Positions 46,728-60,846 of a stretch of 64,000 nt of DNA are shown here, piece by piece. The stretch is from NCBI GenBank assembly GCA_031402225.1, contig JANNSD010000040.1, positions 27,710 through 91,709 on the forward strand, given 5' to 3'. Under the pieces are notes generated by a model, which worked only from the letters and a program-made list of their open reading frames with translations, ran no database searches and was not told the origin of the DNA. A program made the position numbers and the translations under genes. Positions within the stretch are counted from its first letter, which is position 1, and each line of letters opens with the position of its first letter. Source of the stretch: Gemmatimonadota bacterium. GTDB taxonomy: Bacteria > Gemmatimonadota > Gemmatimonadetes > Gemmatimonadales > GWC2-71-9.

Positions 46728-46925
46728 GCCGTGGTGAAGGAAGCGATGTTCCAGGAGGTGGTGGCGCGGTTGGCGCGGGCCGATGGCAGTTGTGGCGGTG
46801 GCCCGGACCGTGCGACTGGACCCCAGGACGGTGCGGGCGTGGCGGGCGAAGGGGCAGAGGCAGCCGCGGGTGGCACGGCGGCGGCGCTCCATCCTCGATC
46901 CCTATGTGGAGTGGCTCGACTCTCC
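46728..46925 (+). mobile_element. IS21-family transposase (IstA) N-terminal remnant, frameshifted
   Basis: Two frames together read ...KEAMFQEVVARLARADG / AVVAVARTVRLDPRTVRAWRAKG...RRRRSILDPYVEWL. This matches the HTH and DP(Y/F) region at the N-terminus of IstA. No catalytic domain follows. Confidence 0.45.
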
Positions 46926-47120
46926 AGGCGCCTGCAAAGAGTCGAGGTCCTCCCCGCCGCCGACCAGCGCACGGTGCTCAAGCGCGTCGACGCCCTGCAC
47001 GAGACCCACCTCCGCACCGCCGCCCGCGCCCGGCCCGCGCCGCCGGGCCGGCTGAGCATGAAAGCCCAGCCGCGAAGGGCCGGACCTCCGTGCAGAGGGC
47101 GAGCAGAAGCTCGCCTTAGA

Positions 47121-47411
47121 TCAAGGGAACTCGAGTTTCCCGTCCGAGCGCGGACGCGTGGATGCCCTCAGCTCGGTTTCTAGTTGCTCGTGAAGCGCTT
47201 CGTCGGACTCGCGTTGGTCAGCCCATGCCTTGCTCTCATGCACAGCGCGCTTTGCTTCGTAGTGGGACAGGCTAGCGAAGTCCTCGAGTGCCCACATGCT
47301 CTCCGCTTTTGTGCACCCCTGTGAACGAAGGTAGACGAGCACTTCCTCCGTTGATTTTCCCTCGCGCATCATCCGCTTTACGGGTTCACGAACGGCTTCT
47401 AGGTGGCTCAC
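47121..47411 (-). CDS. Putative immunity protein of the inverted orphan cassette
   Basis: 96 aa acidic protein, 9 nt downstream of the orphan toxin tip on the same strand. Confidence 0.55.
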   Translation of the reverse strand: MSHLEAVREPVKRMMREGKSTEEVLVYLRSQGCTKAESMWALEDFASLSHYEAKRAVHESKAWADQRESDEALHEQLETELRASTRPRSDGKLEFP

Positions 47412-47419
47412 GACCCCTC

Positions 47420-48049
47420 CTACTTGCTGAGGTCTTTCATGATCTCCATCACATGCCCAGGATTGGCGCCGCTCACTCGCTGACCGCTAATGGTGATCTG
47501 CTCGAACCCCTGCGCCTTGGCAGCGTCTATTAGCTGGCGAGTAAGTTGGAGCATCTGACCCGTGCCCACTTTGACGGTTTCAGCGTCGGCGCCGAACACT
47601 GAGAAGTTCTGGAGATGGACCTTGGTGCCATCAACCGCAACCTTGTACGCAACTTCAAGCTTGCCACCTGCTGTCTCGACGAACTGTGAGACACGCTGAC
47701 CATTCTGAAAGCCCGCTGCTCCCGCGCCTCCTGCACCACCGGCCCCGGCGGCTGCAGCACTGCCCCCTCCAGACAGGAGCCCTACGCCCAAGCCGATAGC
47801 TCCACCGGCAGCACCACCGATCAAAGCATTCCGGCCAACGTTCTCTCGGAGCGGCCGGTCGTTCATCGCGTTGTACGCGACGGTAGCAAGCGCAGCGCCG
47901 GCACCGCCAATCAGCGCACCCGCAAACGCGGTACACCACGGGGCACACAACCCATAGGGGTCACTGAACGCCACGGGATTGTTCGCCGCGTAGGCATAGA
48001 GATTGACGCCGCCGGCCAGCCCGATGGGATCCTGGGTCAGCAAGATCCC
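47420..48049 (-). other. Orphan Rhs C-terminal toxin cassette, inverted relative to the main rhs gene
   Basis: Encodes ILLTQDPIGLAGGVNLYAYAANNPVAFSDPYGL, followed by a Gly-zipper hydrophobic region and a ~100-aa domain of unknown family. It has no credible own start; the ORF-track start is a TTG inside the junction site. Confidence 0.8.
48026..48049 (-). repeat. 24-bp palindromic cassette-junction site (inverted copy; GGGATCTTG CTGACC CAGGATCCC on - strand)
   Basis: Read directly, 18 nt downstream of the recombinase stop codon. It carries the same C>T variant as the copy at 58366. Confidence 0.9.
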
Positions 48050-48067
48050 ACGATCCCGACCTCAAAG

Positions 48068-49012
48068 CTACTTCTGACGGACGCCTCGACGAACCCGCCG
48101 AGCCTGCTCGGCTGGGTGGGCACGTGCGTGCACAGCTTGAAGGCGCACTATCGAAACATGGGTGTATCTGGCCGTTGTTGCGAGGTTTGTATGACCCAGG
48201 ATGGCCTGGACATCCCGTACGTCCGCACCTCCCTCCAATAGCAGGGTGGCCATGGAATGCCGGAACAGGTGGCAGCTCCCGGCCTTGGCCACGTCTGCCG
48301 CCTCGACGTACCGGCGGACCCTCTCCGACAGGCGATTCAGCAGCATGGGAGTGCCGTGGCTGCTGACGAAGAGGAACTCACTTCTCACCTCTCCAACCAG
48401 TCGCGGTCGGCTTCGCTTCAGGTAGCGGCGCACCCAACCGAGTGCGCGCTTGCCACACGGAACAACCCGGTCTCGCTGGCCCTTGCCCGCTCGGACCAAC
48501 ACTACCCCCCGTACCTGGTCGATATCTGCCACGTGAAGATGCGCGACCTCCGCTCGCCGCAGGCCAGTGGAGTAGAGGACCTCGAGAACGGCACGGTCCC
48601 GAAGGCCAAGCATGGAGCGACTGTCCGGACGCCTCAAGACTCGCTCAGCCTCCCTTGAGTTCAGCACCGACATGGGCAACTGAAATGGCCGCTTTGGCAG
48701 GCGCATGGACACTCCGGCGCTGGACACCAGCAGGCCCGAAGAGACTGCCCAACCAAGGAAAGCCTTGATTGAGCCGAGGTATTCCGCCTGCGTGCCCCAA
48801 GCCAACGGCTGTCCGGTCCGGAGCCTGGCCTCGAAGAGCGTGAGACGGAAGCGCTCGAGCCGCTCCCGCGAGAGTTCGGCGGGATGCTCGATCTGAAACG
48901 GCGCGCACCATCGCAGCAGGCGATAAAGGCACGAGCGCTGGTTTCGTACTGTTGCCACCGCATGATTGGTGGCGCGCAGCCACGACAGGTACTCCTCGAC
49001 AAAAACACGCAC
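48068..49012 (-). CDS. Tyrosine site-specific recombinase (XerC/XerD-like)
   Basis: N-terminal SAM-like core-binding domain. Catalytic residues are in STGLRRAE (R), KGQRDR (K), HLFRHSMAT (H-x-x-R), ILGH (H) and TARYTH (Y). Confidence 0.9.
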   Translation of the reverse strand: MRVFVEEYLSWLRATNHAVATVRNQRSCLYRLLRWCAPFQIEHPAELSRERLERFRLTLFEARLRTGQPLAWGTQAEYLGSIKAFLGWAVSSGLLVSSAGVSMRLPKRPFQLPMSVLNSREAERVLRRPDSRSMLGLRDRAVLEVLYSTGLRRAEVAHLHVADIDQVRGVVLVRAGKGQRDRVVPCGKRALGWVRRYLKRSRPRLVGEVRSEFLFVSSHGTPMLLNRLSERVRRYVEAADVAKAGSCHLFRHSMATLLLEGGADVRDVQAILGHTNLATTARYTHVSIVRLQAVHARAHPAEQARRVRRGVRQK

Positions 49013-49176
49013 GAGTTGGCTCCGGGTTCTGAGTCCGCTCGAAGCTACGCGCGCTGCGCCAGCCTATCTCACATCGTCTCAGGACATCGCATGAGACACC
49101 CACCGAGACATTCCTCGCACTCGTCGAGGCCCTAAGTCATTCAGCGACAACAGCCTCTGCGGCTCGGCACCACGGC

Positions 49177-52100
49177 ATGGGTGCTGCCAATCCACGGGCA
49201 ACCCGACTCCAGGGAGCTCTCGTGGTTTCTCTCCGTACCGCTCTGCGCCGCCCCCTTCTGCTCTGCCTCTTGCTGCTCGCCACTTCGCCGCTGGAGGCGC
49301 AGCAGATCGCGCCAATGTGCGCGGGCGCGGGTTGTCAGGAGGATGTGTCGATATCGGGGTTCCCCGCACTGTCGCAAACACCGGCGCCCGAAACCACGGT
49401 GAACTACAACTTCACCGTGACCAACGCGGGTGACCTGGAGCATGAAGTGCGATTTACGTGCACCACAAGTGATCCGCAGGTGTCCTGCAGCAACAGCACC
49501 ACCTATACCCTGGCGCCTTTCGGCTCGGTGGTCATTCCCATGTCCTACCTGGCCAAGGGTGTGGGAGCGCCAATCACCCATACCCTCAAGCTGCTGAAGG
49601 ATGACATCATCATCCAGACCGTTGTCATGAATATCCTGGTTTCGGGAGCATCGTTCATTGCGCACGCCAAGCCGATTGACACGGATACCGCTCTGGCCAC
49701 GGACACGCTGCGTGCGCTCTTCACGCACGCCAGCCCGGTGGTCCCGGGGAGTGTCAAGGTCTGGCTCGATAACACCCTGACCGTCAACACTCTGACCGCC
49801 ACTTCCACCGGCTACACGCTACGCCTGACGGGCGCAACGATCAACACGGCGCTACCGGTCCACACGTGGAAGAGTTACGCCTGCACCGTAAGCGGCCGAT
49901 GCGACTACTTCAGCTCGTCCTTCCGGCTCGTCGGACCGATCACCTACGCCCTCGATGACTCGCTCCCGTCGGCGACCGGGACGGGCACGGGAGGGGTAGG
50001 GATGCTGGGTGGGTTGCCGCTACCACCCATGAATCAGCGCGGGTGTGCCCAGGGCCCGGACGATCCGGAGATCAACATCACGCCGAAGTGGATATCCCAG
50101 CCAGGTACCCCGGGGGTGGCACCCGCAGGTATCGTGTTCCTGGCTGCTACGGTGCCCACGAACACGGTGCTCGTCATTCGAACCACAACCGTGGACCTCA
50201 AGCCCGGCAACGGACGGCCGCTCTGCGCCGACTACACCCACTTGCAGGACAATCAGTTTGACTGGGGCTACTGGATCGGGGCAGAGAAGAACGATGCCCT
50301 CTGGGCCGGTTATCCGTGGGGCGACCGCACCGTGGCTCTTGGTGACGAGCGCAGGGGCGACCCGCTTGATGATGGTCCGTGGGAGTTGGCAAGCGCGACC
50401 ATTCACGGCCCGAACCCGTCGGCCTCTCGCTTCGCGGCGGCGCGGCTCGGCCGCGAGAGTCACGCACGATCGCAGGAGACAAGCAACCGCGTCCGTGCGA
50501 TCACCACGATGTCTCGCGTCCCGGATCCCGGAGCGATCAAGCCCAGCACGTTCTCGCTGAGCATCAATGGCACCACGATCATCTCCGCGGGTGCCGTGGC
50601 GTCGGGTATCACCGGTGTGACGCTCGTCAGCCTGGACCGTGTTGGCGCGGAGGTCCAGGTTGCGCTGGGCCACCCGCTGCTGCGCAAGTTCAACCCCCAG
50701 AACCCGACAGCCAACTACGGTGGCTGGAACGAGATCATTGCCGGGATCTCGGATTCGACGGCGCATCACACGGATGTACGTGGGCGCTTCGTAATGGTTG
50801 GGCCGGGCGCGGTCCTGCCCCTCGCACTCGCCCGCCTTCGGGACTTCACGAGCCTCGATCAAGGCGACTGCGCGGCCTTTGGCGCCTTTCAGTGTGGCGG
50901 CGTTGCGCTGACGCAGGCCATACCGGGATTTGTCTCGCGCGACAAGCAGCGAGACCTGCACCTGATCTATCGCTCTGCGAGCCAGCGCCAACAGACGATC
51001 CTGCCGCTCAAGGTCACGATCCAGCGCGACCAGAAGGCCCCTGACTCGACGTGGACCTGGGCCGTCGCCTCCGGCAGCACCATAAGCGACACGCTTCGCT
51101 ATGCGGGGCTCGCCGGCAGTCTGTCCGGATGGCAGGCGAGCAACCTGAATGAGTGGTCGGACGAGGCGAGAGCCGTTGCCACCGAGGTACGGGCCCCCGC
51201 GGCTGGCAATGCCGCGATCCGCCGCGTTACGGCGGTTGTCCGTGGCTTTTATACCGACACGCTGCTCAACAAGGTGACCCGCGATGATACCCTGTCGCAG
51301 GATGTCGTCCAGCTCCACTTGAGCGATACTCTGTCCACCCGGTTCGGCCCGGGCTGGCAACTGGCAGAACTCCATCGACTCGTGCTCGGTCAGTCACTTG
51401 GCGGGGCTCCCGCGGCCATCTGGCTCCGTGGCGACGGTTCCTACGCGATCTATCGCAAGCCCGGGAGTACCTGGTCAGCCCCCGCAGGAGAAACAGCCCG
51501 CCTCGTTCAGTTCAGCGTCGAGCAAACGGGGGCGCTCTATGTCCTGTACCTCGAGAATGGCGCCGCCATCGGCTTCCGCACCGACGGCTGGCAGGTCTGG
51601 ACGCGGGACCTGGTGGGTAACTACACCACTTTTGCGTACGCGACGAGCGCGTCAAGCCGCCTCACATCCATCACCGATCCGGCCGGGCAGCGGTTCGACT
51701 TCACCTACTATCCCGCGGATACCAGGAAAGGCCTCGTCGCCGCCATAGTGCGCTACGCAGTTACCTCGGATACGATTGCGAGGTTCGACTATACCACCAC
51801 CGGAACGCCCGGCCGCCTGATCAAGGTTGCCACACAACGTACAGGATCCCTCGCCGACTCCGCCCGCTTCAGCTACTTCACCACCTCCGTCGGTGCCTTC
51901 ATCGACTCGATTGTTGATCCGCGCGACACCACCGGGCGCCGGGTCGCATCGCGGGTTGCCTATGACGCCACAACCTGGACACCGACGTATGTCACGCGCG
52001 CGAAGCCCGGCTCGGCGCAGTATCGCGATGTGTGGCGGCGCGTCTCGCCGCGCACGGGGCGCGGCCGGGGCCCAGCCGGCCCGGCCGGAGGACAACTGGT

Positions 52101-55100
52101 CGATCGCATGGCTGACATGTCCCAGGTGCTTGGCACGTACGTGCCCTTCGCCGGGCTGCCGACGGACTTTGGTACCGACAAGTTCAGTTACCCGACATAT
52201 GTGCGCCGGATATCCGAGCAGCCTCGACCGCTTGGCGGCGGGCTGATTGAGACGCAGGGTGGTGACGACGTGCGCCGGATCGGCCGCGATTCGCTCGGGC
52301 GGGTGATTCGCATTGTTGCGGCTCCCGATTCGGCTGCACTCATCGATTCAGTCCGCTTTCACTACGACGCACTCAGTCGCGTTGATACAATTGTGCGGAC
52401 GACCCGCGAATACAAACCGCTGCAAACGCGCGTCACCGACACGCTGTCATTTACGTATGACTCGGTCAGCATCACAGCGGGCGCTCAATGGTGTTCCCGG
52501 CTCAAGACGTCCAAGGACGAAATGGCGGCGGTCACCAAAGTGGAGTACGGGCCGAACGGGCCGCGCCTCTGTCTCCCTGACCGCGTCATCGGCATTGCGA
52601 GTGACACGACCTCGTTCAAGTACGACGGCAGCATTGGCGCCGGGCGGCCGGCAGCCGCGCGACCGGTGAGTACCACCGGTGCGGACGGCGTCGTGACAAC
52701 GGCAACGTACGAGACGGTCCTCTGGAACACGGCCACGGTTACCCGCACGGCGGACGGAGCCGTCTCACGACTCTTCTACGATCGCCTGGGTCGTCCAGAC
52801 TCGGTGCTGGACCCCGAGAACGTGCGCACAGCCTTCCTGCGTGATCGCTACGGCAGGGTCACGCACTCGAAAACAGGGAGCGGGCCGCTTGCGCCTGTCG
52901 CACGAACCACCTTCGATCAGTCTGGTAACGCCATCTCGATAGATGTCTACGCATCACAGCTCGAGAACCTGGCGGTGCCGAGCGGAACCCTGCAGACAAC
53001 CCGCACGTTCCTCGACGTGCTCGGTTGGGTTGATTCGACCCTGACGCCCGGCTCGCGCGCCGTCTCGAGCGGCTACCAGGCTCGCAAGCAGAGTTTTCAA
53101 CGGAACGGTTTCGGGAGTGCGAGCGCAGAGTATCCCGGCAACAGCACGAGGATCGCTCGCATTTTCGACTGGGACGGCCGGGTCAAGTACGTCAACGAGA
53201 GCGCCCTCAGCGCGAGCATGTCCATGGATGGGGAGCGCTTCGCCGACGCGGCCACGATGACCTGGCTCAATGCGCTTATCCTGCCGACAGGGCCGGCCAT
53301 CAATGCCGGGCGGGTCCACCAATACAAGTATGACAATCGCGGGCGGCTCCGGGGAACCTGGAGCTATGAAGACTACATTGGCCCGACAGCCTACTCGCAC
53401 CGGCACTACGGCTACACCCGTGCCGGGCTGCTGGCCGCTGACACCCTGAGTTTCGACAGCCTCACCATCATCAGGCAGTACGAGTACAACCGCCGCGGCC
53501 AGCGTACCAGGATGACTGACGCGATAACCGCGCTCAAGCCATTCTCTTCCGGCGACGCGACGAGTGAGACCGTGTACAGCTACGATGTCACAACTGGTCG
53601 GCTCACCACGGACTCTGCGTTCTATGGGAGCGGCAGGCTGCCCCTGGCCTCGGTGGCCCTGGTCTATGACCGAGCAGGGCGCGAAACGCAGCGCACCGTG
53701 CGGGTGGATGGCGGTGTCCCCCTGATAACGACGACACATTATGACAACAAGGGACGGGTCGACAGCGTCGACACCAAGCAAGGGTCGACACGTCACTATG
53801 GATGGTGGGGAACCAGCTACAACAAGCAGGATGAGCTCCTTGCGTACACGAGCAGCGAGCCCGGCGCGACTTCCGGCAGCCACATCATGGAGTACGCGCT
53901 CGATGGCACGCGGCGCCTGACTCGATCCACGGCGGGCTTCCACACGAATGTCTGGACGTACGATGTCCTTGGGAATCGGCTGAGCGAGAATTTCACTTCG
54001 ACGCAGGTGGTCAGTTGCACCGGGCCGCGCAGCCTGACCTACGGCGTGGACAGCCGGATACTCTCACGTGGAGCCCTGCCTGGCCAACCCCCTTGCGGCC
54101 AGAGCACCTATTTCACGAACCAGGCTGGTCAGCGCCTCGGCGAAGCCGACCAGACGTACACAGGGAGCGCACAGGTGCAGTTGAGGTCGGTCATGACCTA
54201 CACGGCGAGTGGCCAGCTCTACTATAGCGCCACACCGACGGGGATCACCGGATCCTGGGACCACCTCTGGACGTGGAGCGATGCCCAAGGGATACGGGTC
54301 ATGTCACGCATGGCCACCGTAAACGGAGTGTACCCCACCCCCAATCCGATGACTTCGGGCCAACGCACCTACTATGGCTATGACGGATCGAATGTCGCCG
54401 TCGAGGTGGTGAGCGGGGGCGGTGTATGGCGGGTCGAGCGGCGTCACATGTTCCTGGGCATCGACCAGGAAGTCGCGGGCCGCTATGTGGTGGGCCCGGT
54501 CAAGAACCTGTACATCGTGACCGATCGCCAGGGCACGATGGTCAAGGCGATGGAGGCGAACGGCAACACTGCCAGTTCCGGGCTCGTTCGTGGGGCATTC
54601 GGCGAACGCCTGGGCCTCGGCGCCAACGGGAGCAATGCGACCGCGACCGGATTTGCAGGGGCAGGGAGCCCTTCTCAGGCGGGCTATGCATACCTTCGGA
54701 ATCGGTGGTATGATCCAACCACGGGGCGCTTCCTGACCCAGGATCCCATCGGGCTGGCCGGCGGCGTCAACCTGTATGCGTACGCTGCGAACAATCCCGT
54801 CGCATACAGCGATCCATTTGGACTCTGCGAACCGTTCTGTACTGCGATAGATGTCGCCATGGTGACCGCCGACGTGGCGGACATCGCTGTCAATGGCATG
54901 ACAGTTGGGCGAGGGCTCACGCTTGCAGTGGACGTTGTAGCCGCAGCAATTCCGTTTGTCCCCGCTCTCGCCGGCGCAACGGCGCGCGTGGTCCAAGGCG
55001 CGCAACGCGCAGAAGGAGTTGTCCACAACAATTCACTTAGGACAACCGCCCCGGCGCAAGGCTACTCCCTGCGCGACAAGAGTACCGGCAGCGTGCTCAA

Positions 55101-55287
55101 GTATGGGGAAACAACTCAGGGAACACGTCGCTACACTCAGAAGTACCTCCGTGAGAACAACGCAGAAATGGTGTTTGAGGCGAAGGGTTCGAAGCAAGAG
55201 ATGCACGACTGGCAGCACCAGAAGATCACGGAGCACAAGGCAGCAAATGGCGGTAGCCGTCCGCCCCTCAACAAGTCTGACTACTGA
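49177..55287 (+). CDS. Rhs/YD-repeat polymorphic toxin with Sec signal peptide (2036 aa)
   Basis: Signal peptide ...LLLCLLLLATSPLEAQQ. The first ~800 aa lack repeats. Many YD repeats follow (YKYDNRGRL, YEYNRRGQR, YSYDVTTGRL, VYDRAGRE, HYDNKGRV, WTYDVLGNRL). The core end is RWYDPTTGRFLTQDPIGLAGGVNLYAYAANNPVAYSDPFGL, then a ~170-aa tip. Confidence 0.92.
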   Translation: MGAANPRATRLQGALVVSLRTALRRPLLLCLLLLATSPLEAQQIAPMCAGAGCQEDVSISGFPALSQTPAPETTVNYNFTVTNAGDLEHEVRFTCTTSDPQVSCSNSTTYTLAPFGSVVIPMSYLAKGVGAPITHTLKLLKDDIIIQTVVMNILVSGASFIAHAKPIDTDTALATDTLRALFTHASPVVPGSVKVWLDNTLTVNTLTATSTGYTLRLTGATINTALPVHTWKSYACTVSGRCDYFSSSFRLVGPITYALDDSLPSATGTGTGGVGMLGGLPLPPMNQRGCAQGPDDPEINITPKWISQPGTPGVAPAGIVFLAATVPTNTVLVIRTTTVDLKPGNGRPLCADYTHLQDNQFDWGYWIGAEKNDALWAGYPWGDRTVALGDERRGDPLDDGPWELASATIHGPNPSASRFAAARLGRESHARSQETSNRVRAITTMSRVPDPGAIKPSTFSLSINGTTIISAGAVASGITGVTLVSLDRVGAEVQVALGHPLLRKFNPQNPTANYGGWNEIIAGISDSTAHHTDVRGRFVMVGPGAVLPLALARLRDFTSLDQGDCAAFGAFQCGGVALTQAIPGFVSRDKQRDLHLIYRSASQRQQTILPLKVTIQRDQKAPDSTWTWAVASGSTISDTLRYAGLAGSLSGWQASNLNEWSDEARAVATEVRAPAAGNAAIRRVTAVVRGFYTDTLLNKVTRDDTLSQDVVQLHLSDTLSTRFGPGWQLAELHRLVLGQSLGGAPAAIWLRGDGSYAIYRKPGSTWSAPAGETARLVQFSVEQTGALYVLYLENGAAIGFRTDGWQVWTRDLVGNYTTFAYATSASSRLTSITDPAGQRFDFTYYPADTRKGLVAAIVRYAVTSDTIARFDYTTTGTPGRLIKVATQRTGSLADSARFSYFTTSVGAFIDSIVDPRDTTGRRVASRVAYDATTWTPTYVTRAKPGSAQYRDVWRRVSPRTGRGRGPAGPAGGQLVDRMADMSQVLGTYVPFAGLPTDFGTDKFSYPTYVRRISEQPRPLGGGLIETQGGDDVRRIGRDSLGRVIRIVAAPDSAALIDSVRFHYDALSRVDTIVRTTREYKPLQTRVTDTLSFTYDSVSITAGAQWCSRLKTSKDEMAAVTKVEYGPNGPRLCLPDRVIGIASDTTSFKYDGSIGAGRPAAARPVSTTGADGVVTTATYETVLWNTATVTRTADGAVSRLFYDRLGRPDSVLDPENVRTAFLRDRYGRVTHSKTGSGPLAPVARTTFDQSGNAISIDVYASQLENLAVPSGTLQTTRTFLDVLGWVDSTLTPGSRAVSSGYQARKQSFQRNGFGSASAEYPGNSTRIARIFDWDGRVKYVNESALSASMSMDGERFADAATMTWLNALILPTGPAINAGRVHQYKYDNRGRLRGTWSYEDYIGPTAYSHRHYGYTRAGLLAADTLSFDSLTIIRQYEYNRRGQRTRMTDAITALKPFSSGDATSETVYSYDVTTGRLTTDSAFYGSGRLPLASVALVYDRAGRETQRTVRVDGGVPLITTTHYDNKGRVDSVDTKQGSTRHYGWWGTSYNKQDELLAYTSSEPGATSGSHIMEYALDGTRRLTRSTAGFHTNVWTYDVLGNRLSENFTSTQVVSCTGPRSLTYGVDSRILSRGALPGQPPCGQSTYFTNQAGQRLGEADQTYTGSAQVQLRSVMTYTASGQLYYSATPTGITGSWDHLWTWSDAQGIRVMSRMATVNGVYPTPNPMTSGQRTYYGYDGSNVAVEVVSGGGVWRVERRHMFLGIDQEVAGRYVVGPVKNLYIVTDRQGTMVKAMEANGNTASSGLVRGAFGERLGLGANGSNATATGFAGAGSPSQAGYAYLRNRWYDPTTGRFLTQDPIGLAGGVNLYAYAANNPVAYSDPFGLCEPFCTAIDVAMVTADVADIAVNGMTVGRGLTLAVDVVAAAIPFVPALAGATARVVQGAQRAEGVVHNNSLRTTAPAQGYSLRDKSTGSVLKYGETTQGTRRYTQKYLRENNAEMVFEAKGSKQEMHDWQHQKITEHKAANGGSRPPLNKSDY
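54733..54749 (+). repeat. Half-site in the expressed rhs gene: spacer CTGACC + right arm CAGGATCCC (left arm diverged, GGGCGCTTC)
   Basis: Read directly. Homology to all orphan cassettes starts exactly at CTGACC. Confidence 0.85.
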
Positions 55288-55700
55288 TGCGATCTATGAA
55301 ACTCTGGATGAGTGGTGAGGTCGATGCGGACGTATACGACGCCTTTCGCGCGGCGAGGCAGGATGTTGAGTCCGCTGTAGCGGCAGTGCTTGCCCGCGAG
55401 TCGTTTGGACCCCCTGCCCTTGAGTGGGCAGTCATTCCCATCATCCGCTCGGAAGACCATCCCGACTACCGGGAGTTGGTGCAGTTCCATGCTCGCCGAA
55501 CGACCGTGGAGTTCCGGCTCAGGGTGTCCCACGTGCAGTTCCGTTCCGGAACATCGGGGCAGCAGCGAGGCCTCCTTGTCCAAGCTCTGTTACGCAGCCT
55601 GTCGATGTTGCCCGTGGGGCTATCGGCGTCCGTCAGGGCCGCAGAGCTTGGAGCAGGCCTAGGCGCTCTAGCCCGGTCGGAGGGCTGGCCATTAACCTAG
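55287..55700 (+). CDS. Putative cognate immunity protein of the expressed Rhs tip
   Basis: 137 aa. The ATG overlaps the rhs stop (TGATG). Confidence 0.6.
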   Translation: MRSMKLWMSGEVDADVYDAFRAARQDVESAVAAVLARESFGPPALEWAVIPIIRSEDHPDYRELVQFHARRTTVEFRLRVSHVQFRSGTSGQQRGLLVQALLRSLSMLPVGLSASVRAAELGAGLGALARSEGWPLT

Positions 55701-55809: not shown

Positions 55810-55833
55810 GGGATCCTGCTGACCCAGGATCCC
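55810..55833 (+). repeat. 24-bp palindromic cassette-junction site GGGATCCTG CTGACC CAGGATCCC (perfect)
   Basis: Read directly. Confidence 0.95.
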
Positions 55834-56349
55834 ATCGGGCTGGCCGGCGGCGTCAACCTGTATGCGTACGCGGGGAACAACCCCGTCGCGTTCAGCGATC
55901 CGTATGGACTCTGCCCGCAGGTGCCCCACCTTTGTGTCGTGGCGGCCGTGGCTGTGTTCAAGATCGCTTCCGCCGCCGCTCGGTCGCCTACTGGGCAACG
56001 AGTTGTCCAGCGTGGGTCGGAACTGGCGCGCAATCTTGCCCAATCGGGCGCCGTTCGCCAAGCCGGAGAAGCTGCGCACCACATCGTCGCGCAGACCGCG
56101 AAGGCTGCTCAACCAGCCAGAGACAAGCTCGCGGAAGTTGGCATCAAGATCAACGATGCAGTGAATGGTGTTATTCTGCCCGCCACGAGAGAGTATGTGG
56201 GTCAAGCAGTCAATCACCTGATAGTCCACACGCAGAAGTACTACAACGCCGTCAACGAGGCGCTGGCGAACGTGCAAGTCAAGGAAGAAGCGGTTGCGGC
56301 GCTCAAGGCGATCGGAGAGGCCCTCAAGGACGGATCGTTCACTCCGTGA
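55810..56349 (+). other. Orphan Rhs tip 1: AHH-type HNH/EndoVII nuclease toxin
   Basis: GILLTQDPIGLAGGVNLYAYAGNNPVAFSDPYGL, then EAAHHIVAQ (AHH at 56074..56082), INDAVNGVILP and HTQKYY, matching the AHH nuclease family pattern. Confidence 0.75.
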
Positions 56350-56888
56350 CCATCACAAGCATTTACAAGCTGGGCTACCAGCTAGATCGGGTGACCAGCT
56401 TCGCGCTGGTGGACCAAACCGCGGGTTTCTTCAACCAGTTCGACGGGCGCGCCCTCGCGTCGGCGTGGTCCCCGCCTCGCGTTCACCCGGCGGACACACC
56501 CGACGATGATGCGACCCTGGGGGATTGCACGGTTCTAGGCACGGTCCCGCTCTTGTCGCAGCGGGCTGCCGCGGTTCTCGACGAGTTCCTACGGGATTCC
56601 GCCGAGCTCCTGCCGGTGGTGTATCCGAGGGCACCGTACTTCGTGCTGAATGTCCTGGGAATGGCGGACTGCCTCCTAGAAGGGGCATCTGATCTTGAGC
56701 GGTTCCCAACCGGCCGCGTGATGCGGGTGCGGCGCTACGTGTTTGACCGGGCACGACTGCCGGGCACCGCGATCTTTCGAATACCCCAGCTGGCTCGGGC
56801 TCATATATTCGTGAGTGATGCTTTCCGGGTTGCTGTGCAAGCCGCAGCTCTCAATGGGTTTAATTTTGAGTTGGTGTGGACCGCTTGA
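56346..56888 (+). CDS. Putative immunity protein for the AHH tip (possibly Imm11/DUF1629-like)
   Basis: The GTG overlaps the toxin stop (GTGA). 180 aa. The family assignment comes from memory only. Confidence 0.55.
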   Translation: MTITSIYKLGYQLDRVTSFALVDQTAGFFNQFDGRALASAWSPPRVHPADTPDDDATLGDCTVLGTVPLLSQRAAAVLDEFLRDSAELLPVVYPRAPYFVLNVLGMADCLLEGASDLERFPTGRVMRVRRYVFDRARLPGTAIFRIPQLARAHIFVSDAFRVAVQAAALNGFNFELVWTA

Positions 56889-57038: not shown

Positions 57039-57062
57039 GGGATCCTGCTGACCCAGGATCCC
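57039..57062 (+). repeat. 24-bp palindromic cassette-junction site (perfect)
   Basis: Read directly. Confidence 0.95.
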
Positions 57063-57626
57063 ATTGGGTTGGCTGGCGGCGTCAATCTGTACGCGTATGC
57101 GGGGAACAATCCCGTGAGCTTCAGCGACCCGTTTGGACTGTTCGAGTGCGTTCAACAGGGAAACTGCACACAAGGGGAAGTTGGGAAGGTCGGCGCAAGG
57201 AACAATAAGTCCCTTGCGGACATCCGTGCGGATATGAAGGCGGATGGCAGCGTCAATGAATTGCCCTATGTCATAGCGGCGGCGACCATTTCGGTGAGCG
57301 CTCCAACGACAGCGATGGGAAGGGTTGCGGCAGTACTCGTACCACGGGCAGGGACGGCACTTGGCCGCTTAGTTGGCAAGCCAAACCCTACAAAGCTGAA
57401 CCGAGCGGGGGATCAACAGCCTTTCAACGCCAGGAATGGGCAATACCTTGCTCCATCTGCGAATCCGGGGCTCAGGAATTCACCAGTCGGGGACTTTGGG
57501 ATTGGATTTGGACAGGGCTACGCGTCCGGAATTACGGGTGCGGTGGCGCCAGACGCAACTAGTGCTGCTATGGGTTGGGGGCAAACGGTTGGTCAGTTCG
57601 TGGGCGTCCTATTCGATGGAAACTAG
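57039..57626 (+). other. Orphan Rhs tip 2: unknown toxin with Gly-rich C-terminus
   Basis: GILLTQDPIGLAGGVNLYAYAGNNPVSFSDPFGL, then a ~150-aa tip ending GIGFGQGYASGITGAV...GWGQTVGQFVGVLFDGN. Confidence 0.7.
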
Positions 57627-57628
57627 AA

Positions 57629-58144
57629 ATGACTGCACCGATTCTCCTCGTATTGACCCTGGGCATTGCCTTCGCCGCGTTCTGGCAGCTCGGCAAGCGC
57701 CCCCACGCGCACAAAAATCTGCAGCCCGATGACGTCAAGCGGTTATTGGGTACGCTTCTGCGCAGGGGCTTCAATCAGGGATTTCTAGTGCTTGACGTAA
57801 AGCTTCGATCACAAAAGGGTCAAAGGCGGTTCATTCAGTTTACGAAGTACATTAGGAGAGGACAAGCAGGGCTTCAGTTTGACTTTCCCTTGGTGGATTG
57901 GTCGACCCCTTACTACGCGGAATTGCAGTCTGTTCTTAGGCGGGATGGCTTTTCGTTCGTTACGACGAGTACTGGTAGGACTGACACGCGAGAGTTCCTC
58001 ACGATTGATTTCGGCTCAAGCATTGATCGGGCATCACAACTCGCGAACGTGGCGATTGAGGTGTTGGTGCCTACGCAATCGGATAGGAATATCACTGGCT
58101 TTTTACACAATGTCAGTGCTCGCGACACGGAGGTAACTGCGTAG
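57629..58144 (+). CDS. Putative immunity protein 2 (N-terminal TM)
   Basis: ATG 2 nt after the toxin stop. MTAPILLVLTLGIAFAAFW forms the TM. Confidence 0.55.
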   Translation: MTAPILLVLTLGIAFAAFWQLGKRPHAHKNLQPDDVKRLLGTLLRRGFNQGFLVLDVKLRSQKGQRRFIQFTKYIRRGQAGLQFDFPLVDWSTPYYAELQSVLRRDGFSFVTTSTGRTDTREFLTIDFGSSIDRASQLANVAIEVLVPTQSDRNITGFLHNVSARDTEVTA

Positions 58145-58365: not shown

Positions 58366-58389
58366 GGGATCTTGCTGACCCAGGATCCC
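58366..58389 (+). repeat. 24-bp cassette-junction site, one mismatch (GGGATCTTG CTGACC CAGGATCCC)
   Basis: Read directly. Confidence 0.9.
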
Positions 58390-58974
58390 ATCGGGCTGGC
58401 CGGCGGCGTCAATCTGTATGGGTATGTGGGGAACAACCCGATCGGATTCAGCGACCCTTATGGGCTGGCTCCTGAACACGGTTGCCCGCCGTGCCTGCCG
58501 CAAGGTGTAGAGGGTCTGGCAAATCTGTCACCGGGGGAGCTGCAGTCAGCACTTGAAAGATCCCTCGAGCCCCCGCTGTCGCATTCGTACGACGTAGACC
58601 TGAGTGTGACTGTGCCCGGTGGCAGTTTGTCTCTTTCTGATCCAAGCCACATGCGGACACAGATCGGTGGACTCGCTGGCGTGACGGTCGACTTCACGAT
58701 GACGGCCAACACGACGCCCGCTAACCCGGCCACTCTTGACCTCGGGACAGGGCTGTCTTTGGTCGCGGTGAGTCTCGGGAAGGGTGTCGCCAGTGTGCAC
58801 ATTGGCCCGAGCATTGGGTCCCCCCTTGGGGTGACCCTTCCGGGGACAACGGACATCAACACTCGAGCCCCCGCCTCCGGGACGATGCCGCGCGACGCCA
58901 CATCTGTGCGACAGGGATCTCCGGCAATAGGATACTCAGACTCAGTGGGACGGCTCCTCAGCGGCAGGCCGTAG
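58366..58974 (+). other. Orphan Rhs tip 3: unknown toxin
   Basis: ILLTQDPIGLAGGVNLYGYVGNNPIGFSDPYGL, then a ~165-aa tip with no family recognised. Confidence 0.7.
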
Positions 58975-58975
58975 C

Positions 58976-59374
58976 GTGTTGCAGCGCGAATGGCGACCGT
59001 GCACCTTGCTCGCGGCAGCGCTTGTTGTGGGTTGCTCAGACATCCGACACCTACGCCGCGCGGCCGAGGGTGTCGCCGCGGTCGTGCCGGCGCAGGAGGT
59101 GACTGCCACGCTGAAGGGACGGGGCCAGTTGGTCGTCACCATTGTCAACTCACCGTTGGGTCGTTCCCCTGATTCAGTCGTACGCAAGGTGTCCGAGGAG
59201 CTCGCGATTCAGGTTAGCTCGCAATACGACGGGGACGGACCGATTGCTTCGGTCACAATCTCCTTTCGAGAACGCGCCAGCGTTGGCCCCGTGGGCGCAC
59301 CCACTGGCGTTGCTTCCTATGTCTTCACTATGGCACCGATCGACACCCTAGCTGCGTACGACACGCGGAAATAG
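58976..59374 (+). CDS. Putative immunity lipoprotein 3
   Basis: GTG 1 nt after the toxin stop. Lipobox LVVGCS. Confidence 0.5.
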   Translation: MLQREWRPCTLLAAALVVGCSDIRHLRRAAEGVAAVVPAQEVTATLKGRGQLVVTIVNSPLGRSPDSVVRKVSEELAIQVSSQYDGDGPIASVTISFRERASVGPVGAPTGVASYVFTMAPIDTLAAYDTRK

Positions 59375-59384
59375 AGAGCAGGGC

Positions 59385-59630
59385 ATGCCACCCCATTCCG
59401 CCGCGAACATGTTGCGTGTGGCCCTTGCGGCGGTTGCCATCATTTCCTGGGGAGTTGCCCTCGTGCTGGCATTCCTCACAGCGGTGGGTCGATCGGGCGG
59501 GCCCAGGAGATGGTTCGTGCCGCTCTGGTCCAGTACCGGCCTGTCGGATCAAGGCCTGCGGCACCGTCGCCTGCATGTCCGGTGGGCCTGTGTTGGAACT
59601 CTTGCGGCCCTAGCGGCGGCGTTGGTATAG
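59385..59630 (+). CDS. Small two-TM membrane protein (second gene of cassette 3)
   Basis: 81 aa with two hydrophobic segments. The coding call is tentative. Confidence 0.35.
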   Translation: MPPHSAANMLRVALAAVAIISWGVALVLAFLTAVGRSGGPRRWFVPLWSSTGLSDQGLRHRRLHVRWACVGTLAALAAALV

Positions 59631-59690: not shown

Positions 59691-59714
59691 GGGATCCTGC
59701 TGACCCAGGATCCC
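59691..59714 (+). repeat. 24-bp palindromic cassette-junction site (perfect)
   Basis: Read directly. Confidence 0.95.
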
Positions 59715-60236
59715 ATCGGGCTGGCCGGCGGGGTCAATCTGTATGCGTACGCGGGGAGCAACCCCGTTGCGTTTAGTGACCCCTTCGGCTTGCTCGCCGA
59801 CACGCTGCGATACAACGGAAAGACTCTGACTTTGAGTGCCGACGATGGGACGATAAAGTGGACCGGACGCGCTACGTCGGGACGACCTGGTGCCACCACG
59901 AATGACCAAGCCAAAGAGAACTTCGGCCCAATACCTGAAGGAACCTACGAGACGGGCAAGATTTTCAACGAGAAGGGGCTGAGGAAGGTCTTGTTCAAGA
60001 TTAAGACTCTTGGCGCTGACTACGGTGACTTCCGTACGCCACTCACGCCAACGAACAACTCGGACTCGAAGGGAAGGACAAGCTTCTGGCTGCATGGTGG
60101 ACAGAGGCCCGGATCGGTGGGGTGCATTGATGTTGGATATCGGGACAGGAGCTTGTTCACTCTGTTGAAGCAGGCGGACGGCCCCGTGCCACTCATCGTG
60201 ACATATCCATCAACTCAACTCCATCAGGCCCCATGA
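59691..60236 (+). other. Orphan Rhs tip 4: Tlde1/DUF2778-like (L,D-transpeptidase-fold) toxin
   Basis: GILLTQDPIGLAGGVNLYAYAGSNPVAFSDPFGL, then GPIPEGTY ... FWLHGGQRPGSVGCIDV. The H...S.GC catalytic pattern is that of YkuD/Tlde1-type domains. Confidence 0.6.
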
Positions 60237-60661
60237 GCCTACACGTTCCTCGTCCCGCATTGGTGGCGGGCTTCATCGCAACGCTATGCTATGGTGTACT
60301 CCATCAGCTATGGCTGAGGCAATGGCTTGCCCAGAATACCGGTCGGTTGCCTTCGGTTCCGAGTTGGCTACTCGTGGTTGCATTTTCCATCGTCTTCGTC
60401 GGTTCAGCCGCTGCTGCCGGTCTCGCTGGCGCGCACTGGAAACTGATTACGGCCTCGGTCGTTACTGCATCGGTAGTTTGCGGTCTAATGGTCGCAGCCG
60501 TCGCGAGCTGGGCGACATCGAGCACCGAGATCTACCGGGACGTGTCCCCGGCCCAGCAGCTCTTGGCAGTGAGTCCCTACATCCTAGGAGTGGCGATTTC
60601 CCTGGGATGCCTGGGCCTGTTCCCGGCTTGGCTTGCGCGAATCGTGGCCGGGCGCGCATGA
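60233..60661 (+). CDS. Putative immunity protein 4 (four-TM membrane protein)
   Basis: The ATG overlaps the toxin stop (ATGA). 142 aa, polytopic. Confidence 0.55.
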   Translation: MSLHVPRPALVAGFIATLCYGVLHQLWLRQWLAQNTGRLPSVPSWLLVVAFSIVFVGSAAAAGLAGAHWKLITASVVTASVVCGLMVAAVASWATSSTEIYRDVSPAQQLLAVSPYILGVAISLGCLGLFPAWLARIVAGRA

Positions 60662-60702
60662 CTGGTCTTGGCACGAACGCGTGAGCTAGCACGGGATGGT
60701 GA

Positions 60703-60738
60703 CGATCCTGCTGACCGAGGATCCTGCTGACCCCAGCG
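60703..60738 (+). repeat. Terminal degenerate junction sites without cargo: GATCCTG CTGACC GAGGATCCTG CTGACC CCAGCG
   Basis: Read directly. Two overlapping left-arm + spacer units are followed by unrelated sequence. Confidence 0.85.
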
Positions 60739-60846
60739 ACGTACAGGCCACTGGGAGAGCTGGGGCTCCACCCCGCGCTGAGGCTGCTTGCCAGTGAAGT
60801 GTATGTACGGTATTCTAGTCATGTACACACATTTCAGGGAGGTTGT

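What the first reader, a model, noticed from the sequence alone, without database searches (positions are those of the whole stretch)
48026..54749. Geometry predicts a symmetric two-state inversion switch between two toxin tips
Seen: the site at 48026..48049 is inverted relative to the half-site in the expressed gene (54733). The layout is imm(-) tip(-) site | recombinase(-) rhs-body(+) | site tip(+) imm(+).

Inference: inverting the segment between the sites would put the rhs body in frame with the 47420..48025 tip and its immunity gene. The recombinase gene would then sit in front of the current tip. Both states would have the same organisation: the recombinase is followed by the silent cassette, and the rhs body by the active one.

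The ~93-bp conserved LTQDPIGLAGGVNLYAYA..NNPV.FSDP.GL block would also allow RecA-dependent inversion. The mechanism therefore needs testing.
Basis: inference. Interest (0 to 1): 0.75.

Follow-up and report, generated by a model that had tools for sequence, protein, structure and literature searches.

The report
Recombinase-driven Rhs toxin-tip cassette switch

Summary
A 24-bp palindromic site, GGGATCYTG|CTGACC|CAGGATCCC, lies at 48026-48049 on the minus strand. It is inverted relative to a half-site (spacer plus right arm only) in the expressed rhs gene at 54724-54747. A catalytically intact Xer-like tyrosine recombinase and the rhs body lie between the two.

The locus is not two-state. Four more full sites in + orientation (55810, 57039, 58366, 59691) each head an orphan tip and immunity cassette. 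A degenerate terminal site closes the array at 60702.

Related Gemmatimonadota recombinases (58-70% identity) carry the same site. Synonymous positions inside it are conserved, and similarity stops sharply at its left edge. The site usually abuts the recombinase stop codon. Cassettes occur in mixed orientations. Near-identical strains carry different cassettes exactly at these sites, including a different expressed tip on a 98%-identical rhs body.

Modelled A x M inversion gives an in-frame 2058-aa Rhs-tipA. By inversions alone, all six tips are reachable in at most two steps, across 240 arrangements.

My best reading is a site-specific system that combines features of a shufflon and an integron. 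Inversion in this strain was not observed. Similar Xer-associated Rhs arrays were reported in 2026 in a paper I could not read.

The parts
47121..47411 (-). Candidate immunity gene of cassette A (96 aa).
   Evidence: ORF directly downstream of tipA on the same strand. No Pfam or NCBIfam hit. The assignment rests on position only.
47420..48025 (-). Silent toxin tip A, an orphan Rhs C-terminus in frame with the site.
   Evidence: The ORF 47420..48043 starts inside the site and encodes LTQDPIGLAGGVNLYAYAANNPVAFSDPYGL followed by a unique tail. In-silico inversion fuses it in frame to the rhs body. A 74%-identical orphan exists in a Gemmatimonadales MAG.
48026..48049 (-). Site A, a full 9-6-9 core site: GGGATCTTG|CTGACC|CAGGATCCC. 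It lies 18 nt after the recombinase stop codon.
   Evidence: The same junction of recombinase stop and site (0-45 nt apart) occurs in relatives L001, L151-154, L155-157, L161, L163 and L166.
48068..49012 (-). Xer-like tyrosine recombinase (314 aa).
   Evidence: Pfam Phage_integrase, 2e-40. XerD structure 1a0p, 2.6e-38, with R152, K177, H248, R251, H274 and Y283 all aligned to the catalytic residues. Below the NCBIfam cut-offs for XerC, XerD and integron integrase.
49013..49176 (.). Divergent intergenic region between the recombinase and rhs. It would move with the invertible module.
   Evidence: Coordinates. The consensus promoter scan found nothing, so promoters here are inferred, not shown.
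49177..54723 (+). Constant Rhs body (signal-peptide-like N-terminus, YD-type repeats, Rhs-associated core).
   Evidence: 2036-aa ORF. TIGR03696 Rhs_assc_core at aa 1807-1883, 2e-19. Seven YDxxGR-type motifs. 42.6% identical to the rhs in L002. An independent unitig, L069, covers exactly the stretch from site M to site A.
54724..54747 (+). Site M, a half-site in the expressed gene: degenerate left arm GGGCGCTTC (codons GRF), then spacer CTGACC and right arm CAGGATCCC (codons LTQDP).
   Evidence: The main genes of L002 and L168 have the same design with different GRF codons (GGTCGGTTC), so that arm is not conserved at the DNA level.
54748..55287 (+). Currently expressed toxin tip M.
   Evidence: C-terminal 180 aa of the rhs ORF. 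No Pfam hit.
55287..55700 (+). Immunity gene of tip M.
   Evidence: Pfam Imm44, 3e-09.
55810..56888 (+). Cassette O1: full site 55810-55833, AHH-nuclease tip (to 56349), Imm11-type immunity gene (about 56346-56888).
   Evidence: AHH, 1.7e-13; Imm11, 7e-08. An in-frame fusion with the rhs body is possible.
57039..58144 (+). Cassette O2: full site 57039-57062, tip (to 57626), candidate immunity ORF 57575-58144.
   Evidence: No family hits.
58366..59630 (+). Cassette O3: full site 58366-58389, tip (to 58974), candidate immunity ORF 58976-59374, and a small ORF 59385-59630.
59691..60661 (+). Cassette O4: full site 59691-59714, Tlde1-like tip (to 60236), candidate immunity ORF 60233-60661 (hydrophobic sequence, read by eye as membrane-like).
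   Evidence: (Tlde1_dom, 4e-04, below the Pfam cut-off).
60702..60732 (+). Terminal degenerate element: ACGATCCTG|CTGACC|GAG-GATCCTG|CTGACC. It is two tandem copies of left arm plus spacer with no Rhs block after them, and marks the end of the array.

Best explanation
**What it is.** This is a site-specific cassette system for Rhs toxin tips. A dedicated Xer-like tyrosine recombinase (48068-49012) acts on 24-bp core sites of 9-bp arm, 6-bp asymmetric spacer and 9-bp arm. Spacer and right arm are the codons L-T-Q-D-P at the end of the Rhs core, so a crossover in the spacer joins any tip in frame to the rhs body.

**Site types.** Silent cassettes carry a full palindromic site. The expressed gene keeps its own protein-coding left arm (GRF codons), so it is always a one-good-arm site. 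Every exchange regenerates exactly this pattern.

**What recombination would do.**
- Sites in inverted orientation give inversion. A x M flips the recombinase plus rhs body module onto tip A.
- A second inversion, between the new junction and any downstream site, brings O1-O4 into expression without losing DNA.
- Sites in direct orientation can excise or integrate cassettes as circles. This would explain how arrays are built and turned over.

**Shown here:** the sites, their nucleotide-level conservation, their link to this recombinase clade, in-frame geometry, and natural turnover of cassettes at the sites in relatives.

**Inferred:** that this recombinase binds and cuts these sites; that the half-site M is a substrate; and that inversion occurs at a useful rate in this strain.
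For: **1. The site is real and repeated.** There are 5 full copies, 1 half-site and a terminal element, against 0 expected by chance.

**2. The site is constrained at the DNA level.** Across 31 distinct sites from 14 loci:
- Information is about 0-0.5 bits upstream of the left arm.
- It jumps to 0.9-2 bits (mostly 1.2-2) across the 24 bp. This includes synonymous third positions: ACC, CAG and GAT score 2.0, 1.8 and 2.0.
- The coding block downstream shows 3-periodic decay, with most third positions at 0.5-1.2 bits.
- The palindromic left arm of orphans (GGGATCYTG) is not part of the Rhs coding homology, where the main gene has GRF codons.

**3. The spacer is nearly uniform within loci.** It is CTGACC in 7 of 7 sites in the window and CTCACC in 24 of 25 sites in relatives. 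The exception is one CTGACC site in L151, whose other site is CTCACC. The difference is a synonymous Leu codon.

**4. The recombinase looks active.** All six catalytic residues are present.

**5. Recombinase and site travel together.** The site lies 0-45 nt after the stop codon for most of the 58-70% identical recombinases examined. In the others it lies just upstream of the start, in divergent orientation (L002, L071, L162, L168).

**6. Cassettes turn over at the site.**
- Four samples carry the same recombinase protein and about 99% identical DNA up to the site. After the site, three carry three different cassettes and the fourth is interrupted by an IS element.
- L156 and L157 show the same pattern, on only about 10 nt of downstream sequence.

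**7. The expressed tip differs between near-identical strains.** L168 and L002 are 98% identical in the rhs body up to site M. They are 98.7% identical from the recombinase-proximal site through 7 kb downstream. The roughly 5-kb arrays in between are entirely different, including the expressed tip.

**8. Mixed orientations point to past inversions.**
- L162 has sites in the order -,+,-,+,-; L161 has +,-,+; L002 has +,-,-; L168 has +,+,+,-.
- Homologous cassette pieces lie in opposite orientation relative to the recombinase in L071 and L168.
- Because the spacer is asymmetric, integration alone cannot produce mixed orientations. This last step is inference.

**9. All fusions are in frame.** The products are 2058, 2028, 2044, 2051 and 2030 aa. 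All tips are reachable in at most 2 inversions.

**10. One defective arm need not block recombination.** From established knowledge of other systems, not tested here:
- Cre recombines lox66/lox71-type sites that have one defective arm.
- R64 Rci acts on sfx sites in which only one arm is conserved.
Against: - **No direct evidence of either orientation change in this strain.** The only other assemblies of it are k=31 unitigs that break in the 30-38-nt shared run, so they say nothing about orientation.
- **The expressed gene has only a half-site.** Its left arm is not conserved at the DNA level.
- **L002 and L168 share no cassettes.** That fits wholesale replacement of the array better than shuffling. 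Such replacement could be horizontal transfer plus homologous recombination in the flanking blocks.
- **Some orphans suggest the homologous-recombination route.** L168 site 3021 and L161 site 13630 carry main-gene-type left arms plus decayed core remnants. This points to the classical displacement route for making orphans.
- **No rhs near most related recombinases.** Most have none within 10 kb.
- **Cassette A has no site at its far end**.
Confidence: 0.62

Rival explanations
1. The system only builds arrays, in the manner of rAID systems or integrons. The recombinase captures, excises and reorders orphan tip and immunity cassettes at the full palindromic sites, mainly to stock immunity genes. 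The half-site in the full-length rhs is not a substrate. The expressed tip then changes only rarely, by homologous recombination or gene transfer, and the inverted cassette A is a by-product.
For: - Most related recombinases head co-oriented arrays of small ORFs with no rhs within 10 kb.
- The site abutting the recombinase stop codon behaves like a primary insertion point. Different first cassettes follow the same recombinase.
- The left arm of M is degenerate and unconstrained.
- Published parallels exist: rAID systems (PMC12247911), and polyimmunity loci next to XerC/D genes (PMC3482391).
Against: - Spacer and right arm sit exactly on the LTQDP codons, and every cassette is in frame with the rhs body. 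A pure immunity store has no need for this.
- The cassettes keep complete toxin tips, not only immunity genes.
- L002 has inverted orphans directly downstream of a full-length rhs, with the recombinase at the far end of the array. This is the classical shufflon layout.
- The tip on a 98%-identical body differs between L002 and L168, with the breakpoint at M.
Confidence: 0.2
2. RecA-dependent homologous recombination through the roughly 100-nt conserved Rhs core-end block drives all tip exchange, inversion with A and deletion with O1-O4 alike. The neighbouring recombinase belongs to an unrelated mobile element or serves another purpose.
For: - The A and M blocks are 81-83% identical over 100-123 nt and share a 38-nt exact run.
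- Orphan rhs activation by homologous recombination is documented in Salmonella (PMC3967940).
- Some orphans in relatives carry longer remnants of the core.
Against: - It does not explain the conserved palindromic left arm on every orphan.
- It does not explain the sharp similarity boundary at that arm.
- It does not explain the conservation of synonymous sites confined to the 24 bp.
- It does not explain the conserved juxtaposition of recombinase and site across recombinases 58-70% identical to the window's.
- Exact identity outside the site is short, with runs of 17-53 nt that all begin at the spacer.
Confidence: 0.1
3. The locus is a static relic. The arrangement records past events, and the recombinase or its sites no longer act in this strain.
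For: - Only one arrangement is on record for this strain.
- No promoter-like sites were detected.
- Cassette A has no site at its far end.
Against: - The recombinase ORF is intact with all catalytic residues.
- All five full sites differ from the consensus by at most 1 nt.
- All tip ORFs are open and in frame.
- Close relatives show recent turnover.
Confidence: 0.08

Closest known systems
R64/ColIb-P9 shufflon (Rci tyrosine recombinase with sfx sites that swap PilV C-termini). Described in PMC3414803; the details of sfx asymmetry are from my own knowledge.
   Same: - One tyrosine recombinase gene sits next to the array.
- Recombination sites lie inside coding sequence, at the border between the constant N-terminal part and the alternative C-terminal parts.
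- Swapping is in frame and by inversion.
- The site in the expressed gene has only one conserved arm.
- Relatives L002, L071 and L162 have the same layout of convergent tip pairs in invertible segments.
   Different: - The cargo is toxin plus immunity cassettes on a 2036-aa Rhs protein, not a pilus adhesin.
- Silent sites are fully palindromic and several are in direct orientation, so deletion and integration are not excluded.
- In this window the invertible segment carries the constant part and the recombinase rather than the tips.
- The recombinase scores as Xer-like, and no Rci-type family was among its matches.
[quoted passage not shown] 2019, as described in PMC12247911).
   Same: A predicted tyrosine recombinase heads an array of short, mostly co-oriented genes from polymorphic-toxin systems, with conserved sequence motifs between cassettes. 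Relatives L153, L163, L166 and the 9.6-kb P0003 contig look like this.
   Different: - rAID is defined as a store of orphan immunity genes, and its way of forming is stated to be unknown (PMC12247911).
- Here complete toxin tips are kept.
- Here the site is defined and lies in frame at the Rhs core end.
- Here a full-length rhs is part of the recombining unit.
- The phylum differs (Gemmatimonadota). Homology of the recombinases was not tested.
Rhs poly-immunity arrays with Xer-type recombinases in Xenorhabdus and Photorhabdus (Martinkus et al. 2026, Curr Biol 36:176, doi 10.1016/j.cub.2025.11.047). The paper is not held; I know it only through citation in bioRxiv 10.64898/2026.07.13.738213.
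   Same: Recombinases 39-44% identical to the one here lie beside rhs genes and orphan tips in many Xenorhabdus, Photorhabdus and Pectobacterium genomes. This is the same general association of a Xer-like recombinase with Rhs cassettes.
   Different: - In those loci, orphans are preceded by 120 nt or more of conserved non-coding DNA that includes a decayed core end ('KYDRTGTCP*').
- They have no 9-6-9 palindrome at the DP codons.
- Nearly all of the tips found are co-oriented with the recombinase.
- I could not check what that paper shows about sites or mechanism.
Integrons (IntI with attI and attC cassette arrays).
   Same: - The recombinase sits next to a primary site where the first cassette varies between strains.
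- Arrays consist of promoterless-looking cassettes.
- Toxin-antitoxin (PIN/VapB) modules are embedded in or beside the arrays.
   Different: - The recombinase is not an integron integrase: TIGR02249 scores 114 bits against a cut-off of 265.
- The sites are simple double-strand-type 24-bp cores, not folded attC hairpins.
- The cassettes are gene fragments meant to be fused in frame.
Type I restriction-modification hsdS 'epigenetic invertons' (PMC7672463).
   Same: A recombinase encoded next to the locus inverts DNA between repeats inside coding sequence. This swaps domains between an expressed gene and silent partial copies.
   Different: The swapped parts are specificity domains rather than toxin plus immunity cassettes. 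There is no array of direct-repeat cassettes, and the repeats differ.
Orphan rhs activation in Salmonella (Koskiniemi et al. 2014, PMC3967940).
   Same: A full-length rhs is followed by orphan tip and immunity modules that share the core-end block. Exchange yields a new toxin on the same body.
   Different: That system works by homologous recombination, and I know of no dedicated recombinase or palindromic site in it. Here a defined core site and a linked recombinase are present.

Membership tests
Tyrosine recombinase superfamily (Xer-like) | Catalytic domain with the residues R-K-H-R-H/W-Y. | tested here: met
   Pfam PF00589, 2e-40. In the alignment to XerD 1a0p, R152, K177, H248, R251, H274 and Y283 are conserved.
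Chromosomal XerC/XerD (dif resolvases) | Score above the equivalog cut-offs for XerC or XerD. | tested here: not met
   TIGR02224 scores 209.5 against a cut-off of 335. TIGR02225 scores 201.5 against 329.6. The best hit, NF002331, scores 341 against 371. The protein is Xer-like but cannot be filed as XerC or XerD.
Integron | An IntI-type integrase above the family cut-off. | tested here: not met
   TIGR02249 scores 113.6 against a cut-off of 265. NF011946 scores 69.8 against 435.
Integron | attC-type imperfect hairpin sites at cassette ends. | tested here: not met
   Cassette boundaries are 24-bp 9-6-9 cores with no longer conserved flank.
Rhs / YD-repeat polymorphic toxin | An Rhs-associated core domain ending in DPxGL, followed by a variable tip and an immunity gene. 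| tested here: met
   TIGR03696 at aa 1807-1883, 2e-19, above its cut-off of 32.5. Tip followed by Imm44. An AHH and Imm11 orphan pair.
Rhs / YD-repeat polymorphic toxin | An array of YD/RHS repeats in the body. | tested here: inconclusive
   Pfam reports no RHS_repeat hit. Seven YDxxGR-type motifs were found by pattern search. The body is 42.6% identical to a second Gemmatimonadales rhs.
Shufflon (multiple-inversion system) | Several recombination sites in inverted orientation at the 3' part of one gene, next to a tyrosine recombinase, giving alternative in-frame C-termini. | tested here: met
   Site A is inverted relative to M, O1-O4 and the terminal site. In-frame products. 240 inversion states. 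Relatives have alternating site orientations.
Shufflon (multiple-inversion system) | Inversions actually observed in a clonal population. | not testable with these tools
   Only one long assembly of this strain exists, and the k=31 unitigs break in the shared run.
Shufflon (multiple-inversion system) | Asymmetric sites that restrict the reaction to inversion, as known for R64 sfx (own knowledge). | tested here: not met
   Orphan sites have symmetric arms; only the spacer is asymmetric. Four sites are in direct orientation.
rAID-type recombinase-associated arrays | A tyrosine recombinase followed by two or more co-oriented short genes with conserved intergenic motifs (definition in PMC12247911). 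| tested here: inconclusive
   Met in relatives L153, L163, L166 and the P0003 contig. In this window only one cassette follows the recombinase; the main array lies beyond the rhs in the opposite orientation. Homology to the Bacteroides recombinase and the low-GC criterion were not tested.
Xer-associated Rhs arrays of Xenorhabdus/Photorhabdus (Martinkus 2026) | A homologous recombinase next to rhs and orphan cassettes. | tested here: met
   39-44% identity, E-values down to about 1e-70, with Rhs core-end motifs in the same loci.
Xer-associated Rhs arrays of Xenorhabdus/Photorhabdus (Martinkus 2026) | The same recombination-site design. | tested here: not met
   There is no 9-6-9 palindrome at the DP codons. 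Instead there is a conserved upstream region of 120 nt or more. The site as defined in that paper could not be consulted.

The most novel reading that the evidence does not exclude
**Proposed class.** Gemmatimonadota carry a previously undescribed kind of programmed toxin switch. A dedicated Xer-like recombinase uses a 24-bp core site written into the LTQDP codons at the junction of Rhs core and toxin.

**What it would do.**
- Reversibly fuse any of six or more toxin tips to one Rhs body.
- Capture or release cassettes as circles.

**The arrangement in this window.** The constant part (rhs body plus recombinase gene) is itself the invertible module. It 'walks' along the cassette array. One inverted cassette acts as the key that makes the directly repeated cassettes reachable without loss of DNA.
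Probability: 0.4. Interest if true: 0.8.

Novelty: new variant of a known kind. Interest (0 to 1): 0.62.

Why it matters
**The open question.** How polymorphic toxins change their warheads, and how orphan toxin and immunity arrays are assembled, is only partly understood:
- The mechanism by which rAID systems form is stated to be unknown (PMC12247911).
- The documented route for Rhs is slow homologous recombination (PMC3967940).

**What this locus offers.** It provides a compact, testable system:
- a defined 24-bp site;
- a single recombinase with identifiable catalytic residues;
- exact predictions for every junction.

**If it works as inferred:**
- Toxin choice in these bacteria would be a programmed, reversible, population-level variable, akin to phase variation of weapons together with their immunity genes.
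- The site and recombinase pair could explain why such loci break metagenome assemblies. Most homologues sit on contigs of 1-3 kb.
- The pair would be a small new recombinase and site combination for in-frame domain swapping.

Tried and rejected
- **Other assemblies of the same strain.** An exact-protein look-up of the recombinase found only two Logan unitigs. Their ends fall at the first shared 30-mer of the repeat, so they say nothing about orientation. The exact tipA protein is on record only in the source contig.
- **Closer relatives.** The genome and metagenome scans returned nothing closer than 59% identity. The protein search found 70% and 68% relatives. The 70% one lies on a 1.2-kb contig and was not fetched.
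- **Literature.** Nine full-text searches found no report of recombinase-driven inversion of rhs tips. The most relevant paper, Martinkus 2026, is not held.
- **Promoters and terminators.** The consensus scan found nothing in 46900-49400. This is uninformative for this phylum.
- **A terminal site beyond immA.** None was found.
- **Distant relatives.** I tested whether recombinases of 54% identity or less (Myxococcota, Acidobacteriota, Proteobacteria) share the site. They do not.
- **Tandem or structured-RNA explanations.** I rejected these without testing, because every element lies in frame with a protein motif.
- **Chance palindrome from the embedded GGATCC.** Rejected, because the left arm is conserved across 28 orphan sites while the DNA just upstream is not.

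Full report

Yes. The minus strand at 48026-48049 reads GGGATCTTG|CTGACC|CAGGATCCC. This is a 9-bp arm, a 6-bp spacer and a 9-bp arm in inverted repeat. The expressed rhs gene (49177-55287, 2036 aa) has the spacer and right arm at 54733-54747 in the opposite orientation. Its left arm is GGGCGCTTC, the codons for G-R-F.

The 24-mer with up to 3 mismatches occurs five times in 64 kb, against none in 100 shuffles. The 17-mer CTGACCCAGGATCCCAT occurs six times against 0.05 expected. The conserved block is a 123-nt inverted repeat at 81%.

**2. What this finding left out**

- There are four further full sites, all in + orientation, at 55810, 57039, 58366 and 59691. Each starts an orphan tip ORF followed by a small ORF.
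- The array ends at 60702-60732 with two tandem copies of left arm plus spacer and no Rhs block.
- The cassettes are genuine toxin and immunity modules:
  - the expressed tip is followed by an Imm44 protein;
  - O1 is an AHH nuclease with an Imm11 protein;
  - O4 is weakly Tlde1-like.
- Similarity among the six cassette heads begins abruptly at the left arm and runs about 100 nt to the DPxGL motif.
- In every pairwise comparison, the longest exact run starts at the spacer.

**3. The recombinase**

The 314-aa ORF at 48068-49012(-) has a Phage_integrase domain (2e-40). It aligns to XerD with R152, K177, H248, R251, H274 and Y283 all in place. It falls below the curated cut-offs for XerC, XerD and integron integrases. 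It is therefore Xer-like, but not the chromosomal dif resolvase and not an IntI.

**4. Comparative evidence**

*Distribution.*
- Recombinases 58-70% identical to this one occur in Gemmatimonadota MAGs and metagenomes.
- Every locus of this group that I could read carries the same site, with spacer CTCACC instead of CTGACC.
- More distant homologues (54% identity or less) lack the site.
- Xenorhabdus, Photorhabdus and Pectobacterium homologues (39-44%) do lie next to rhs orphans. Those orphans have a different upstream structure.

*Site conservation.* I compared 31 distinct sites from 14 loci.
- Information content is near zero upstream of the left arm.
- It is high across the 24 bp, including synonymous third positions.
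- It is 3-periodic downstream, as expected for sequence constrained only at the protein level.
- The left arm of orphans is conserved: GGGATCCTG or one-base variants in 26 of 28. In two full-length genes the corresponding GRF codons differ (GGGCGCTTC against GGTCGGTTC).
- So the 24-bp element is under selection as DNA, and the expressed gene carries a true half-site.

*Linkage of recombinase and site.* For most recombinases of the group, the site lies 0-45 nt after the stop codon (window, L001, L151-154, L155-157, L161, L163, L166). In L002, L071, L162 and L168 it lies just upstream of the start, in divergent orientation.

*Turnover at the site.*
- Four samples carry the same recombinase protein and about 99% identical DNA up to and including the site. 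After the site, three of them hold three different cassettes and the fourth is interrupted by an IS element.
- L168 and L002 are 98% identical over the end of the rhs body up to site M. They are 98.7% identical from the recombinase-proximal site through 7 kb downstream. The roughly 5 kb between is unrelated in content, number and orientation of cassettes, so the expressed tip differs.

*Orientation.*
- Arrays with mixed orientation are common: L162 has -,+,-,+,-; L161 has +,-,+; L002 has +,-,-; L168 has +,+,+,-.
- Homologous cassette pieces lie in opposite orientation relative to the recombinase in L071 and L168.
- Because the spacer is asymmetric, integration of circles preserves orientation. 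Mixed arrays therefore imply inversions. This last step is inference.

**5. Modelling the window**

- A crossover in the spacers of A and M inverts 48038-54735. It yields an in-frame 2058-aa Rhs ending in tip A, and places the recombinase in front of tip M.
- Crossovers between M and O1-O4 would give in-frame products of 2028-2051 aa by deletion.
- Treating the sites as a signed permutation problem, inversions alone reach 240 arrangements. Tip A is expressed after one inversion and each of O1-O4 after two.
- The single inverted cassette is therefore what makes the directly repeated cassettes usable without loss of DNA.
- Every exchange regenerates a half-site on the expressed gene and a full site on the displaced tip. 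This matches what is seen in all loci.

**6. Mechanism and rivals**

The best-supported reading is a site-specific system that combines shufflon-type inversion with integron-like cassette turnover (confidence about 0.6).

*Shown:*
- the sites and their DNA-level constraint;
- their linkage to an intact recombinase clade;
- in-frame geometry;
- natural replacement of cassettes, including an expressed tip, at the sites in relatives.

*Inferred:*
- catalysis by this enzyme at these sites;
- use of the half-site;
- activity in this strain.

*Rivals:*
- **Array builder only (0.2).** It does not touch the full-length gene. Supported by the many rhs-less arrays. Weakened by the in-frame design and by L002 and L168.
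- **RecA-dependent exchange (0.1).** Possible through the 38-nt run. It does not explain the palindromic arm, the sharp boundary or the linkage to the recombinase.
- **Static relic (0.08).**

**7. Relation to what is known**

- Functionally, the closest system is the R64 shufflon (PMC3414803).
- In organisation, the closest are rAID systems (PMC12247911) and integrons.
- In biology, the closest are the orphan rhs modules of Salmonella (PMC3967940), and the Xer-associated Rhs poly-immunity arrays of Xenorhabdus and Photorhabdus. The latter were reported in 2026 (Martinkus et al.). I know that paper only through bioRxiv 10.64898/2026.07.13.738213, because it is not held.
- Zhang et al. 2012 had already noted XerC/D genes next to polyimmunity loci (PMC3482391).
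- Nine full-text searches found no description of recombinase-driven inversion of Rhs tips, or of a core site embedded at the Rhs core end.
- I therefore rate this a new variant of a known kind. The rating carries the caveat that I could not read the 2026 paper.

**8. Verdict**

- The 'symmetric two-state switch' is a correct description of one possible reaction, but not of the system. The system is a multi-cassette recombination locus.
- The decisive test is cheap. Look for four diagnostic 60-mers (two parental, two recombinant) in the raw reads of the two SRA runs that contain this strain, or in long reads.

Noticed in passing
window 60799-61531 (+) and 45963-46542 (-); also L162 1022-1702, L163 14186-14869, L166 15299-15896, L168 2316-2987: PIN/VapB-type toxin-antitoxin pairs sit at the edges of, or inside, the cassette arrays in the window and in several relatives. 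Examples are PIN 61058-61531 (9e-07) and a weak VapB match at 60799-61065. The left pair at 45963-46542 had no Pfam hit and is PIN-like only by eye. The pattern recalls the toxin-antitoxin cassettes thought to stabilise chromosomal integron arrays.
   Followed up: partly
window 43394-45795; L155 1-7568; L163 1-9749; L164, L165: A secretin gene (43394-44836) and a sigma-54 activator (44833-45795) lie next to the locus. In three relatives the homologous recombinase sits directly beside a type II secretion operon; a sigma-54 activator accompanies it in L163-L165 but not in L155. This suggests a conserved chromosomal neighbourhood, or a link between the signal-peptide-bearing Rhs and that secretion system.
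   Followed up: partly
window 60702-60732: The array ends in ACGATCCTG-CTGACC-GAG-GATCCTG-CTGACC. This is two tandem copies of left arm plus spacer with no right-arm and Rhs block after them. It may be the scar of the original attachment site or of two successive events.
   Followed up: partly
window 48050-48067: Between the recombinase stop codon and site A there is a partial copy of the left arm: GGGATCGT next to GGGATCTTG. The P0003 loci have GGGGATAT in the same place. This could be an accessory binding site or a chance match.
   Followed up: no
L168 696-6133 versus L002 4643-9901: Two Gemmatimonadales assemblies have 98-98.7% identical flanks (rhs body end on one side; recombinase plus 7 kb on the other). 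Between the two sites they carry completely different 5-kb cassette arrays and share no cassette. This looks like wholesale replacement rather than shuffling.
   Followed up: yes
L168 3021 (+), L161 13630 (-): Some orphans carry a main-gene-type left arm (RWF or GRF codons) plus decayed upstream core sequence ('RYDPGARWF'). This suggests that a second route, displacement by homologous recombination, also creates orphans in these arrays.
   Followed up: no
L026-L068 (Xenorhabdus/Photorhabdus), e.g. L032 5255, 12000, 18745: The homologous recombinases in entomopathogenic Enterobacterales show three features. A conserved GC-rich element (GGGGCAGACCGTGGCCGGACTGCCC) follows the stop codon. Orphan tips recur with a period of about 6.7 kb. 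Each orphan is preceded by 120 nt or more of conserved non-coding sequence.
   Followed up: partly
window 49177-55287: Pfam reports no family for the 2036-aa protein. NCBIfam does find the Rhs-associated core domain, and YDxxGR motifs are present. The repeat region is very divergent from the Pfam RHS_repeat model.
   Followed up: partly
homologue list: Most recombinases 56% or more identical to the query are known only from contigs of 1-3 kb. Several contigs end within a few bases of the site. Assemblies appear to break systematically at these repeats, so such loci are probably under-represented in MAGs.
   Followed up: partly
L151 4588: One cassette in an array that otherwise uses the CTCACC spacer carries the CTGACC spacer seen in the window. 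This could mark cassette exchange between lineages with different spacers, and it would test how strictly spacer identity is required.
   Followed up: no
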